Source: Octopus vulgaris
Lineage: Eukaryota
Direction of reading: 5' to 3'
Length of the DNA: 64,000 nucleotides
Assembly (NCBI GenBank): GCA_951406725.2
Contig: OX597819.1
Coordinates: 76,198,001 to 76,262,000, forward strand
The notes under the pieces were generated by a model. The model saw only the letters and a list, made by a program, of their open reading frames with translations. It had not been told where the DNA came from and searched no databases. Every line of letters starts with the position of its first letter. Position 1 is the first letter of the stretch. This document shows, piece after piece, positions 13,865 to 63,878 of this stretch. A program made the translations under genes and the position numbers.

Positions 13865-14055
13865 AAGCATGAAAACACAAAGAGAAAACACAACAATGCA
13901 AGGACGTGGAACAAGTATAGTGTTATTGGACGCTCAGTAAAGGAAAGAAAGAAGGAGGATCTAACGTTTCGAGCGGAGCTCTTCGTCAGAAACATAGGAA
14001 AAGGAAAGATCCAAGGAAGGGAAGACGGAGGAAAAAAAATCGCCAACGATACACA
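13865..14055 (-). mobile_element. Short non-coding element carrying a minimal hammerhead (probable solo Penelope pseudo-LTR)
   Basis: It sits beside a (TA)n tract and contains the HHR at 13960-13992. Related degenerate sequence occurs near 42475-42555 and 33520-33570. Confidence 0.6.
13960..13992 (-). ncRNA. Minimal type I hammerhead ribozyme motif (C3-G8)
   Basis: Minus strand reads uuu CUGACGA a gagc-ucc-gcuc GAA ACGU U aga. It has an intact core, a 4-bp stem II, a palindromic stem III and a weak stem I. Confidence 0.7.
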
Positions 14056-14249
14056 CACATATGAAATGACAAACTATGAACTCCTATCGGAACTTACCAT
14101 GGACAAGAAGCATTTCTACCACTTCTACACACCACTTTCCTTGGGTAATGGAACTGCAATATATTTTAATTTTTACTTTTATTCTCTTATGTGCTTTTAT
14201 ACTTCTTCCATCCTTTTTTAACTTTATTATTTCCCTCTAGTTAACCATT

Positions 14250-15970
14250 TCACATCGCCTTTGATGAAGGGATATTCCTAGAAACTAACATAAGACTAAC
14301 AGGTGTAACACTAACATTCTCTTTATAAATGTCTTGAAACTTCGACACAGCCTCAATTTGTTGTCTCATTTTATTTACCATATAGATTTTATACACTATA
14401 TACCGATTCCGAATACTGCTGCTCCTGAAGCCGCTGGCGCTCATTCTGTCGTGAACTCCTCTGAGTGTTCCTCGACGGGATTGTTAATGTTTCCATCATC
14501 AACCTCGATGCCATGGACTTGCCAAGACATACTATCTCCTCGACTACAAGTGTCTCAAACTCAAACCCCTCGAATTTCCTCCATGCAGAATTCAGCGTTC
14601 TTCCCGTTATACCCTGCCAGGCCATATCGATGACTTTTCAGGCAGTTGACAATGTTGTAGTGCTCCTCCCAAAATCCACGAAGGTTAGATTTATATTTTC
14701 GGCGAAACAGGTGTTAGGTGTACAATTTCTTAAAATTAGAAATCGCATGTTGGTCCATGGGATGCAAGATTGGAGTGGTGTTGCGTGATAGGTACAGAAC
14801 ATTTATAAATCTTCGAGGTTAGAAGGTTGAGCAGGAGCATTGTCGAGGATGGGGATGACCTTGAGTAGAAGATTGTTCTCTAGAAGGTACTTTTCACTGG
14901 TGATCCGAAGACAAGTTTTACCCACTGGGAGAATAATTGCCTAGTGATCCAGGCTTTAACGTTTGCCCTCCACATGACTTGCAGCTTCTCCTTCAGGATT
15001 TTGTACGACTTGAGCGTTCGTGGATTTTCAGAACGATAAACAAAGGACGGCTTAATCTTCAAGTCTCCACATTCATTGGCAGAAAGGGCGAGAGTAAGCC
15101 TATCTTTCATAGGCAGTTATGTAGGTTTTTCTGGGTATTTTTTCCCAAAAACCTCAGTTTCATAACAGTTGAATACTTGTGCGATGCACACCTCGGCTGC
15201 GATGAGTTGATGGAATTAACACACGAAATCTTCAGTTGCCTTCGTTTCAGAACAGGCTGCTTCTCTATTACTAATGACACTATAAACACCAGCCCTCTTC
15301 TTGAAATTATCAAACCAGCCGCGACAGGCTTTAAATGCATCTGCTGATATCTCCTCCGTCGATGTTCCAGGGTTCTGCTTCAGGATATCCTCATCCCCAT
15401 ATAGCGCTCCTGCTTTCTCGCAGACGATGGTCCCCGTAATTGTATCACCTGCAAGCTGCTTCTCGTTGATCCACAGGCGAAGCAATTTTTCCATCTTTTC
15501 CTGGATAGATATGCGTTGTAACGGCCTTGATCTCGTCTTTTATATTCAGGATGCTGCAAATCGTCGACGTGCTTCGGCTATATTGACGTGATATGTCCAT
15601 TAAACGCACTCCTCTCTCATGTTTATCAATGATTTCCTTCTTCAAATCTATAGCAATCAGCTTTTTCTTCTCAGCACTATCCTTTACACTAACCTTCTTA
15701 AGACACATAGCTAACACAACTATTATAAAATAGTAGCAAAAAATGCACAAAACTATAAGAATCACTGAGAAAAACACAACAGGGATGCTGGCACAATGAG
15801 ACAAATATGAAAACTGAACGAGCAGAGACCGCACCTGCTGGGAGAGCGTGCCCTGAGCTCAGTGCCGACTAGCGGTCGCTTGAACGAAATTCGCTCGTAT
15901 TGCGGATTTCAGCGCGTACTTCAAGACAACAATTCGCACGAATCTCAACTCGTGCAGCAAATTACTCGTA
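14250..15970 (-). mobile_element. Tigger/pogo-like DNA transposon, degenerate
   Basis: CENP-B-type HTH fragments ('LKKEIIDKHERG', 'MEKLLRLWINEKQLAGD...FKACRGWFDNFKKR') and a DDE_1 fragment ('MKDRLTLALSAN..GDLKIKP..VYRSENPR...WRANVKAWIT') are present in frameshifted form. Confidence 0.9.
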
Positions 15971-16659
15971 CGCACACACACACACACACACACACACACA
16001 CACACATATATATAAGTGTATATTTGTATGCATACTTGTGTGTAGATGTATGTGTTGTGTGCTCATATGTGTGTGTGTATGTCTGTGAGTATATGCTCGG
16101 AATTTCTTAAAAGCTTGCGTGACAAAATTCTTATGCGGGATGCGCAGTTGATACTTCAATTATTCAAATACATTACGATAAATTTGATTGTATTCTCTGT
16201 GTAGTTGTCCTGAGATCTTCACTAAATCTTTTACGTCTAGATAAACGGGAAATGCTGCTTTGCTGCTTTGCTGTGCTTTAGAAATGGTATCGAGCTTTGG
16301 CGGCAACGCTTTTCATTGATTCACTTCCATCGCCAAATTATTTTGTAGGCTTCTCACTTAAAACTGTCTCACTTTCATAGAAATATATATTCAGGAGGTA
16401 TGTATGTATATGTGCACATTTGTATGTCTTACAGTTCTATATTTGAGAGATGAGGAATTGTATACATTATTTATATTATTTACATTTGACGGATATTTGT
16501 CCTCATCTTTTTTGTTGTTAATACTCTCCAGCCTTCATGTCTCTTTTCTATCTTGTTGCTCTTGTTGTTGTTGTTGTTGTTGTTATTATTATTATTATTA
16601 TTATTATTATTATTATTATTATTATTATTATTATTATTATTATTATTATTATTATTCAG

Positions 16660-16718
16660 GTCACTTAGAATCTTGGGGTTAATAGCCTGCGCTCTTACCA
16701 CTACGCCATATGCCCGTG
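16660..16718 (-). mobile_element. tRNA-like SINE head fragment
   Basis: Minus strand GGGCATATGGCGTAGTGGTAAGAGCGCAGGCTATTAACC has box A and an anticodon-like arm but no complete cloverleaf. Confidence 0.5.
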
Positions 16719-62360: not shown

Positions 62361-62898
62361 TATAATTTCAACAATTGAGGGTAAAATTAATTAGTTATTA
62401 ATCAATTTCACCAAGTGTTCAGTATGCAAAGGGACCATTTAAGGCGAATTCAAATTATTACATTATATAAAAGGGCTTAGTAAAATAAATTACTTCGCCG
62501 CATACTGAACTCATTAGAAATAGCAGCTAAAAAACTTTTTTAAAGCTATTTCTAATACTTAAAGAAAATCTCTCTCATATATAGCGTTTGCTTAATTCAA
62601 CTCACAAAAGTTTGGGGTAAGGACATTAAAAAATCAAATGCTAAGGTTATTTGAGTACGTACGTTTCAAGATTAGTCAAAACAACATTTCTCTCTTCAGC
62701 TCAGAAATTCCTTGGTTTGGATTTGGAAACACTGAAAGCAAGAACATACCCTTTCGAAGATCCGCTCTTAACTAACAGTGCCAACAAACCCAAAATAAGC
62801 AAGTGAATCATTTCTGTTCTCCCCTTTCCACCAGCGTGGGTTAAAATCATCAAACGCTATGCTTATTTCGGTAAAATCCGAAGCATTAATTAGAGGGA
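62361..62898 (-). repeat. Inverted near-complete monomer of the 546-bp repeat
   Basis: It is the reverse complement of 63086-63624 apart from a 1-nt deletion (GGGG at 62614-62617 versus CCCCC at 63367-63371). Confidence 0.95.
62652..62703 (-). ncRNA. Type I hammerhead ribozyme, inverted copy
   Basis: It is the exact reverse complement of 63281-63332. Confidence 0.85.
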
Positions 62899-63280
62899 AA
62901 AAAGTTTTTTAGCTGCTATTTCTAATGAGTTCAGTATGCGGCGAAGTAATTTATTTTACTAAGCCCTTTTATATAATGTAATAATTTGAATTCGCCTTAA
63001 ATGGTCCCTTTGCATACTGAACACTTGGTGAAATTGATTAATAATTAATTAATTTTACCCTCAATTGTTGAAATTATAATGAATCTCCCTCTAATTAATG
63101 CTTCGGATTTTACCGAAATAAGCATAGCGTTTGATGATTTTAACCCACGCTGGTGGAAAGGGGAGAACAGAAATGATTCACTTGCTTATTTTGGGTTTGT
63201 TGGCACTGTTAGTTAAGAGCGGATCTTCGAAAGGGTATGTTCTTGCTTTCAGTGTTTCCAAATCCAAACCAAGGAATTTC

Positions 63281-63332
63281 TGAGCTGAAGAGAGAAATGT
63301 TGTTTTGACTAATCTTGAAACGTACGTACTCA
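63281..63332 (+). ncRNA. Type I hammerhead ribozyme; predicted cleavage after GUA at 63328
   Basis: It reads ugag CUGAAGA gaga-aauguuguuuugacuaa-ucuu GAA ACGUACGU A cuca. The core is canonical, stem III is palindromic, and stem I extends through AAGG/CCUU. Confidence 0.88.
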
Positions 63333-63826
63333 AATAACCTTAGCATTTGATTTTTTAATGTCCTTACCCCCAAACTTTTGTGAGTTGAATTAAGCAAACG
63401 CTATATATGAGAGAGATTTTCTTTAAGTATTAGAAATAGCTTTAAAAAAGTTTTTTAGCTGCTATTTCTAATGAGTTCAGTATGCGGCGAAGTAATTTAT
63501 TTTACTAAGCCCTTTTATATAATGTAATAATTTGAATTCGCCTTAAATGGTCCCTTTGCATACTGAACACTTGGTGAAATTGATTAATAACTAATTAATT
63601 TTACCCTCAATTGTTGAAATTATAATGAATCTCCCTCTAATTAATGCTTCGGATTTTACCGAAATAAGCATAGCGTTTGATGATTTTAACCCACGCTGGT
63701 GGAAAGGGGAGAACAGAAATGATTCACTTGCTTATTTTGGGTTTGTTGGCACTGTTAGTTAAGAGCGGATCTTCGAAAGGGTATGTTCTTGCTTTCAGTG
63801 TTTCCAAATCCAAACCAAGGAATTTC

Positions 63827-63878
63827 TGAGCTGAAGAGAGAAATGTTGTTTTGACTAATCTTGAAACGTACGTACTCA
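63827..63878 (+). ncRNA. Type I hammerhead ribozyme; predicted cleavage after 63874
   Basis: It is identical to 63281-63332, 546 nt downstream. Confidence 0.88.

What the first reader, a model, noticed from the sequence alone, without database searches (positions are those of the whole stretch)
13960..63878. Hammerhead motifs from different repeat families show three covariants of the core 3-8 pair (C-G, G-C, U-A)
Seen: C3-G8 at 13983-13989 (-), 29554-29560 and 63285-63291; G3-C8 (GUGAACA) at 28928-28934; U3-A8 (UUGAAAA) at 62223-62229 and in the 61542-61578 (-) copy. All have a palindromic stem III (ACGU, AAUAUU, AAUU, ACGUACGU, UCAGCGCUGA). The three minimal types also share one extra purine after A9 and a U at position 17. 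Known: positions 3 and 8 form a Watson-Crick pair in the active HHR, and compensatory variants retain activity. Inference: the covariation implies selection for ribozyme function across several families. Searches for CUGANGA alone would miss these variants, so this genome may hold many unannotated ribozymes.
Basis: partly seen in the sequence, partly recalled or inferred. Interest (0 to 1): 0.75.

Follow-up and report, generated by a model that had tools for sequence, protein, structure and literature searches.

The report
Swapped-core hammerheads in Penelope retroelements
These motifs are mostly leftover ends of Penelope-type jumping genes that carry a small hammerhead RNA fold, and three related families keep one core base pair as C-G, U-A or G-C, so the fold likely still cuts itself; only the G-C form was not found in the papers I could search, and cutting is untested.

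Summary
Observation confirmed: the listed motifs exist, belong to five repeat families and far exceed chance. The G3-C8 family (about 9,200 loose matches; 4,345 of 4,686 strict ones are G3-C8) is the pseudo-LTR hammerhead of an autonomous Penelope-like element with an RT + GIY-YIG frame. The U3-A8 family and a C3-G8 sister family (outside the window) put their hammerhead 90-135 nt before a homologous ORF start, so one lineage carries three Watson-Crick versions of pair 3-8, with compensatory changes in stem II too. All 16 multi-copy motif clusters found have a paired 3-8; no A3-U8 family appeared. Selection most likely acted on master elements; most window copies are decayed. Known already: minimal PLE hammerheads, U3-A8, the extra base, the palindromic stem III. 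G3-C8 I found in print only as a laboratory rescue, but the key paper (Lunse et al.) was not held. Against: no insertion starts at the predicted cut, two successful families carry U4C or A9C, cleavage is untested. This scan already noted the same G3-C8 family in this genome and G3-C8 motifs in others. Verdict: new variant of a known kind, moderate interest.

The parts
13959..13993 (-). Family A minimal type I hammerhead, C3-G8, extra A, 4-nt palindrome, U17 at 13963; inside a ~200-nt short repeat (about 13858-14056) next to (TA)n
   Evidence: 12,082 genome matches; link to a PLE ORF not tested
28747..29026 (.). Family B fold-back insertion: two 5'-truncated ends of a Neptune/Nematis-type PLE joined head to head
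   Evidence: 85-93% identical to the ends of ORF-bearing copies L217, L218, L228, L232, L234, L235
28923..28969 (+). Family B hammerhead, G3 (28928)-C8 (28933), extra G, 5-bp stem II, 6-nt palindrome, U17 at 28964
   Evidence: genome counts
28835..28880 (-). Mirror arm of family B, G3 at 28875, C8 kept, one base lost in stem III
29135..29760 (.). Family C, old fold-back repeat; hammerhead core C3-G8 at 29554-29560 (+, U16.1 decayed to C) and a decayed mirror core at 29286 (-)
   Evidence: only 3 genome matches to my pattern; PLE link not tested
61450..61610 (-). Family D copy, U3 (61575)-A8, A14 lost
62044..62347 (.). Family D fold-back; hammerhead U3-A8 at 62220-62256 (+), U17 at 62253; the minus arm 62044-62200 holds the first codons of the PLE ORF
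   Evidence: 3,053 genome matches
62361..64000 (.). Family E, retrozyme-like 546-nt tandem repeat (one inverted unit, then about 3.2 direct units running 618 nt past the window end); C3-G8 hammerheads at 62699 (-), 63285 and 63831 (+), 8-nt palindrome, A17
   Evidence: units 99.5-100% identical; 130 genome matches, mostly at ~545-nt spacing; no ORF of 100 aa or more here

Best explanation
The motifs are minimal type I hammerhead folds, most of them in the pseudo-LTRs of Penelope-like retroelements, and the G3-C8, U3-A8 and C3-G8 cores are compensatory versions likely kept by selection for self-cleavage in the master elements. Shown: family B's hammerhead sits about 90 nt before the start of an RT + GIY-YIG ORF and again about 1.1 kb after its stop, in a 4,261-nt tandem unit; families D and S have it in the same place before a homologous ORF start. 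Inferred, from published PLE work: a tandem transcript holds two copies that pair through the palindrome to build stem III (or the PLE protein folds it), and cut after U17, trimming or circularising the RNA; the protein nicks AT-rich DNA and starts cDNA at two sites in the first codons, and early termination with strand inversion leaves the fold-back ends seen in the window, which then decay. G3-C8 would be a slower but working core, because G8 acts through its 2'-OH and its base only needs a partner at 3.
For: ORF link: GIY-YIG Pfam hit E 1.8e-5 above cut-off in the 1,025-aa frame of L217; tandem unit with G3-C8 at both ends and an inverted arm in L336; 24 of 24 cores matched in 13 of 16 ORF-bearing loci are G3-C8. 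Homology of B, D, S ORF starts: 35-49% identity, B and D groups starred in the tree. Covariation on 11 hand-picked members: pair 3-8 CG 4, UA 4, GC 2, unpaired 1; 3 of 5 stem II pairs change on both sides; 0 of 500 shuffles reach the score, slid controls are lower (related sequences, few events). 16 of 16 multi-copy clusters have a Watson-Crick majority (9 C-G, 6 U-A, 1 G-C) although the descriptor left 3 and 8 free. 11 of 11 strict hits in 980 kb are paired against 0.3 in shuffles. A3-U8: 516 matches against 808 controls, no family. Laboratory C3G/G8C partly rescues cleavage, also in a PLE hammerhead (PMC11167929, PMC8495972, passages).
Against: No cleavage data. None of 30 tail-selected B arms starts at the predicted cut (nearest 5' ends +27 and +42, cut at +35/36), while about 14 start some 20 nt upstream of the core (my reading), so the copied RNA was uncut. 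In the anole PLE, ribozyme mutants did not affect insertion in vitro and no RNA reads ended at the cut (PMC11167929). Family A is C4 in about 70 of the first 100 copies and the young sister family S has C9 in 32 of 32: damaged-looking cores spread well. G3.G8 makes up 44 of the first 100 non-C8 copies, more than background C-to-G change predicts. G3-C8 is one evolutionary event here. RNAfold's best dimers of the window copies do not give the palindromic stem III for A, B, D or E, only for C.
Confidence: 0.7

Rival explanations
1. The hammerhead fold is kept as a structure (protein-binding or RT-initiation signal) and no longer needs to cut; pair 3-8 covaries because the fold needs it.
For: Inserted copies derive from uncut RNA; ribozyme mutants insert normally in vitro (PMC11167929); U4C and A9C families are abundant; published min-HHR rates are very low (PMC4209133).
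Against: The 3-8 pair forms in the cleavage-competent core (established hammerhead structure work, recalled; rescue data); G5, A6, G12-A14, A15.1-U16.1 and H17 are kept in B and D; no A3-U8 family.
Confidence: 0.2
2. G3-C8 is a founder accident: one master copy took two mutations and the family hitch-hiked, perhaps with G3 fixed by an overlapping signal such as the acceptor-like pyrimidine-CAG that ends at position 3.
For: G3-C8 occurs in a single lineage here; unpaired G3.G8 copies are over-represented; position 3 is the G of a pyrimidine-rich CAG.
Against: Two transversions ending in a pair while the rest of the core and both stems stay intact; fixed in old and young subfamilies and in all ORF-linked copies; sister families reach a pair by other routes.
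Confidence: 0.08
3. Chance matches in AT-rich, repeat-rich DNA.
For: Loose patterns do hit background (3 extra unconvincing hits in the window; 675 control matches for one loose pattern).
Against: Shuffles and reversed-pattern controls give near zero for the strict motifs; fixed position before a PLE ORF.
Confidence: 0.02

Closest known systems
Minimal hammerheads (min-HHR) of metazoan Penelope-like elements, Cervera and de la Pena 2014 (PMC4209133; parts 1-2 of 4 of the main text, parts 1-2 of 3 of the supplement read)
   Same: Type I, short stem I, extra base between 9 and 10.1, G10.1-C11.1, palindromic stem III, in pLTRs, thousands of single or opposite-strand copies; U3-A8 reported (about 1,300 hits in Schistosoma mansoni).
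   Different: No G3-C8 among the representative motifs of their Fig. S3 as far as the text extraction shows; their consensus extra base is H, whereas B and D have G; here three pair types sit in one lineage.
Natural U3-A8 core covariation, Perreault et al. 2011 (PMC3088659; section 8 and passages read)
   Same: C3-G8 to U3-A8 seen in nature and active.
   Different: G3-C8 is not mentioned in the section read; figure 5 not visible to me.
Poseidon PLE of Anolis carolinensis, Frangieh et al. 2024 (PMC11167929; passages read)
   Same: Hammerhead at the ORF start, two RT start sites giving the tail, AT-rich targets; engineered C3G/G8C partly restores protein-assisted cleavage.
   Different: There G3-C8 is a laboratory mutant; here it is the family sequence; family B has the CX2-5CxxC linker that Poseidon lacks.
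Neptune/Nematis PLEs as described by Craig et al. 2021 (PMC8557442; passages read)
   Same: RT then C-terminal GIY-YIG, CX2-5CxxC linker, CCHH, partial tandems, inverted 5'-truncated copy, tail, (TA)n targets.
   Different: Tail about 60 nt rather than 30-40; Neptune versus Nematis not resolved.
Metazoan non-LTR retrozymes, Cervera and de la Pena 2020 (PMC7229834; passages) and Li et al. 2026 (bioRxiv 10.64898/2026.07.22.740005; part 1 of 5)
   Same: Family E: non-coding tandem units with one type I hammerhead each, PLE-like inverted arm.
   Different: 546-nt unit is longer than the 150-450 bp given; long stem II and 8-nt palindrome; circular RNA not shown.

Membership tests
PLE minimal hammerhead (min-HHR) | Core boxes with C3-G8 or U3-A8, GAAA, U16.1-H17 | tested here: met
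   Met by A (U4 subfamily), C (consensus copy), D, E; family B meets all except that pair 3-8 is G-C, which is the variant
PLE minimal hammerhead (min-HHR) | Extra nucleotide between 9 and 10.1, consensus H | tested here: inconclusive
   Present in A (A), B, D, S (G, outside the published H consensus); E scored without one
PLE minimal hammerhead (min-HHR) | G10.1-C11.1 and paired stems I and II | tested here: met
   GC in 10 of 11, AU in 1; stem II 90.9% paired; stem I 3-7 bp
PLE minimal hammerhead (min-HHR) | Palindromic stem III | tested here: met
   A, B, D, E and C; imperfect in sister family S
PLE minimal hammerhead (min-HHR) | Located in the pLTR of a PLE | tested here: met
   B directly, D through ORF-start homology; not tested for A and C; E has no ORF
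PLE minimal hammerhead (min-HHR) | Self-cleavage as a dimer or with protein | not testable with these tools
   No biochemical data; contigs only
EN+ Penelope-like element, Neptune/Nematis type (family B) | Single ORF, RT followed by GIY-YIG | tested here: met
   GIY-YIG Pfam hit at the C end; RT read from the YVDD and neighbouring motifs (motif names recalled; Pfam gave no RT hit)
EN+ Penelope-like element, Neptune/Nematis type (family B) | CX2-5CxxC linker and CCHH cysteines inside GIY-YIG | tested here: met
   Read from the translation against the definitions in PMC8557442
EN+ Penelope-like element, Neptune/Nematis type (family B) | Partial tandem pLTRs, inverted 5'-truncated copy, tail | tested here: met
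   L336, L153, L217; 3' ends 14 at +121-131, 15 at +175-185, 1 between, of 30
EN+ Penelope-like element, Neptune/Nematis type (family B) | RT phylogeny placing it in Neptune rather than Nematis | not tested
   No reference RTs were fetched
EN+ Penelope-like element, Neptune/Nematis type (family B) | Spliceosomal intron in the pLTR | tested here: inconclusive
   Branch-point-like and YAG acceptor-like site 21 nt before G3 in 429 matches; no donor found; no splice joint
Non-LTR retrozyme (family E) | Non-coding tandem units, each with a type I hammerhead | tested here: met
Non-LTR retrozyme (family E) | Unit of about 150-450 bp | tested here: not met
   546 nt, so filed as retrozyme-like only
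Non-LTR retrozyme (family E) | Expressed as circular RNA | not tested

The most novel reading that the evidence does not exclude
A young autonomous Penelope-like element uses a natural G3-C8 hammerhead that really cleaves, unreported so far, and its lineage has tried three of the four Watson-Crick pairs at 3-8 (plus U4C and A9C cores in other families), so PLE hammerheads tolerate, or are tuned to, slow cores that the PLE protein rescues; most hammerheads in this 2.8-Gb genome are invisible to CUGANGA searches.
Probability: 0.4. Interest if true: 0.6.

Novelty: new variant of a known kind. Interest (0 to 1): 0.42.

Why it matters
G8 is the general-acid position of the hammerhead, and G3-C8 has been a laboratory proof of the 3-8 pair. 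A natural family fixed for it, tied to near-intact RT-endonuclease frames, gives a ready pair-break and rescue series (C-G, U-A, G-C in one lineage) for the open question of whether PLE hammerheads must cut for transposition. Practically, 9 of 11 strict motifs in a 980-kb sample were not C3-G8, so genome counts based on CUGANGA are underestimates (roughly 30,000 strict motifs by extrapolation from 11 hits, a weak figure). The overall system is known.

Tried and rejected
Rfam scan: no match. The repeat finder was swamped by microsatellites. A ~3.4-kb tandem at C2:171.24 Mb was not a PLE tandem but duplicated host DNA holding one B copy. Within-family covariation in B: 0 C3-G8 and 1 U3-A8 in the first 100 of 246 non-C8 copies, so rejected; D has 1 C3-G8 in 100. 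G3.G8 as a relic intermediate subfamily: not supported, it occurs in old and young subfamilies about as U8 does (7 of 44 against 6 of 39 young, hand count). Intron donor for the acceptor-like site: none found. Run search: no RNA holder listed on record; laying 4 runs gave contigs only, with cover over the core and no listed difference at positions 3 or 8 in two species labels, and says nothing on expression or cleavage. A3-U8 search covers only motifs with G10.1-C11.1, an extra purine and a 4-nt stem III. One search's end counts were dropped because overlapping loci were not de-duplicated; one search replaces them. In one search row L347 was mislabelled C3A8; it is C3-G8. Small clusters may include overlapping or duplicated loci, and that locus set is biased to family B; 4 of its 10 singletons were unpaired. 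Papers not held: Lunse et al. (PMC5785218), Przybilski and Hammann 2007 (PMC1986816), Martick and Scott 2006 (PMC4447102), Scott et al. 2013 (PMC4008931). Literature searches for natural G3-C8; they found it only as an engineered change.
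Full report
Setting. The window is C6:76,198,001-76,262,000 of a 2.8-Gb genome in 227 contigs, 36% GC and rich in microsatellites. Earlier scan notes call it octopus-like; I did not test that.

Observation. All cited motifs are present. A minimal type I descriptor with positions 3 and 8 free gives 6 sites, all Watson-Crick, against 0.32 in shuffles. They fall into five families: A (13989-, C3-G8), B (28928, G3-C8, mirror arm at 28875-), C (29554, C3-G8, decayed at 16.1), D (62223 and 61575-, U3-A8) and E (62699-, 63285, 63831, C3-G8). 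The window copies of A, C and D at 61575 each carry a decay change.

Genome counts. B: 9,179 loose matches against 8 controls; under one strict pattern 4,345 G3-C8, 246 with another base at 8, 95 with another base at 3; 84 of 94 arms not chosen by the core pattern are G3-C8. D: 3,053, 91 of the first 100 U3-A8 (hand count). A: 12,082, 91 of the first 100 C3-G8, about 70 with C4 (hand count). E: 130, all 100 listed C3-G8. C: 3. In 98 evenly spaced 10-kb stretches, 11 of 11 strict hits were paired (8 U-A, 2 C-G, 1 G-C) against 0.3 in shuffles. Clustering 154 relaxed hits from 1.6 Mb gave 16 multi-copy clusters, all with a paired majority (9 C-G, 6 U-A, 1 G-C), and 10 singletons of which 4 were unpaired. 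A3-U8 is below its control (516 against 808).

What family B is. Longer copies extend upstream through a microsatellite-rich 3' UTR into a GIY-YIG frame. [quoted passage not shown] L336 shows the full pattern: inverted arm, hammerhead, ORF start about 90 nt later, ORF broken by a stop and a frameshift, 3' UTR, second hammerhead 4,261 nt after the first. All 24 cores matched in 13 of 16 ORF-bearing loci are G3-C8. Short copies end at two sites about 60 nt apart inside the first codons, often next to (TA)n, as the two RT start sites of PMC11167929 predict. The window copy is a head-to-head pair of such ends.

One lineage, three pairs. The nearest autonomous relative, S (1,312 aa, 54% identical over 814 aa), has a C3-G8 core with C9, 135 nt before its ATG. 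The tail of D translates to the same ORF start, 104 nt after its core; over 120-130 aa S-D are 49%, S-B 39% and D-B 35% identical, and B and D form starred groups (13 of 41 fetched rows, chosen for having a readable core; unrooted, so direction is inferred only from C3-G8 being the general consensus). On 11 members, pair 3-8 is CG 4, UA 4, GC 2, unpaired 1, and three stem II pairs change on both sides. This is at least two independent compensatory switches at 3-8, not a large sample.

Family E is a young 546-nt tandem repeat with one hammerhead per unit and an inverted arm: retrozyme-like. Family A is a ~230-nt short repeat with fairly fixed ends in (TA)n; C is an old fold-back. I did not link A, C or E to an ORF.

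Mechanism. Shown: anatomy, position, covariation. Inferred: dimer or protein-assisted folding and cleavage after U17 on tandem transcripts of master elements, with decay of the inserted copies. Results against: no B arm of 30 begins at the cut and about 14 begin near an acceptor-like YAG 21 nt upstream of the core, so copied templates were uncut, which agrees with PMC11167929, where ribozyme mutants inserted normally; U4C and A9C families prospered; computed dimers gave the palindromic helix only for C; C8 changes to G about as often as to U, unexplained.

Comparison. PMC4209133 already describes these minimal PLE hammerheads, the extra base, G10.1-C11.1, the palindrome, opposite-strand pairs and U3-A8; its representative alignment has C3-G8, U3-A8 and one U3.G8, no G3-C8. 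PMC3088659 reports natural U3-A8. G3-C8 appears in my eight searches only as an engineered rescue. Lunse et al., with the largest set of PLE variants, was not held, nor were figures visible, so prior report cannot be excluded. The scan's own notes reached the same reading for this genome and saw G3-C8 in other genomes; I tested the one-lineage claim myself.

Verdict. Real, well-supported covariation in a known class of retroelement ribozymes; the G3-C8 family of an intact-looking PLE is the one possibly new element. New variant of a known kind; interest 0.42.

Noticed in passing
family A; window 13959-13993 and L267-L286: The larger subfamily of this 12,000-copy repeat has C at position 4; C4 follows subfamily markers (13 of 13 with one marker, 0 of 5 with the other), so a U4C core was propagated rather than arising by decay.
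   Followed up: partly
L219, L220, L287-L316: Sister PLE family S has many near-identical 1,310-1,312-aa open frames with a long Asn-rich insert and a fixed A9C core with an imperfect palindrome; looks recently active.
   Followed up: partly
family B, 21 nt upstream of G3 (L121-L150, L357-L386): 5' ends pile up at an acceptor-like YAG preceded by a branch-point-like motif; non-inverted copies often have GAG just before it (7 of 12, two of them duplicates), hinting at a tiny first exon or a start site. No donor found.
   Followed up: partly
family B position 8: C8 to G is as frequent as C8 to U (44 against 39 of 100), several times the background C-to-G rate, in old and young subfamilies.
   Followed up: partly
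L341:354-399: Single decayed copy in the D clade with C3.A8, a B-like stem I and a different 6-nt palindrome; may be another subfamily.
   Followed up: no
L041, L080, L117, L133, L152, L153, L179, L204, L221: At least five further U3-A8 hammerhead clusters with 6-8-nt palindromes, outside the window.
   Followed up: no
L028/L029, upstream of the B copy: An intronless reading frame on the other strand that resembles a dCMP deaminase (recalled motif, not tested), in a duplicated segment.
   Followed up: no
window 9288-9726: CAA and CAG-rich repeats within 170-190-codon open frames; possibly a polyQ exon or a plain microsatellite.
   Followed up: no
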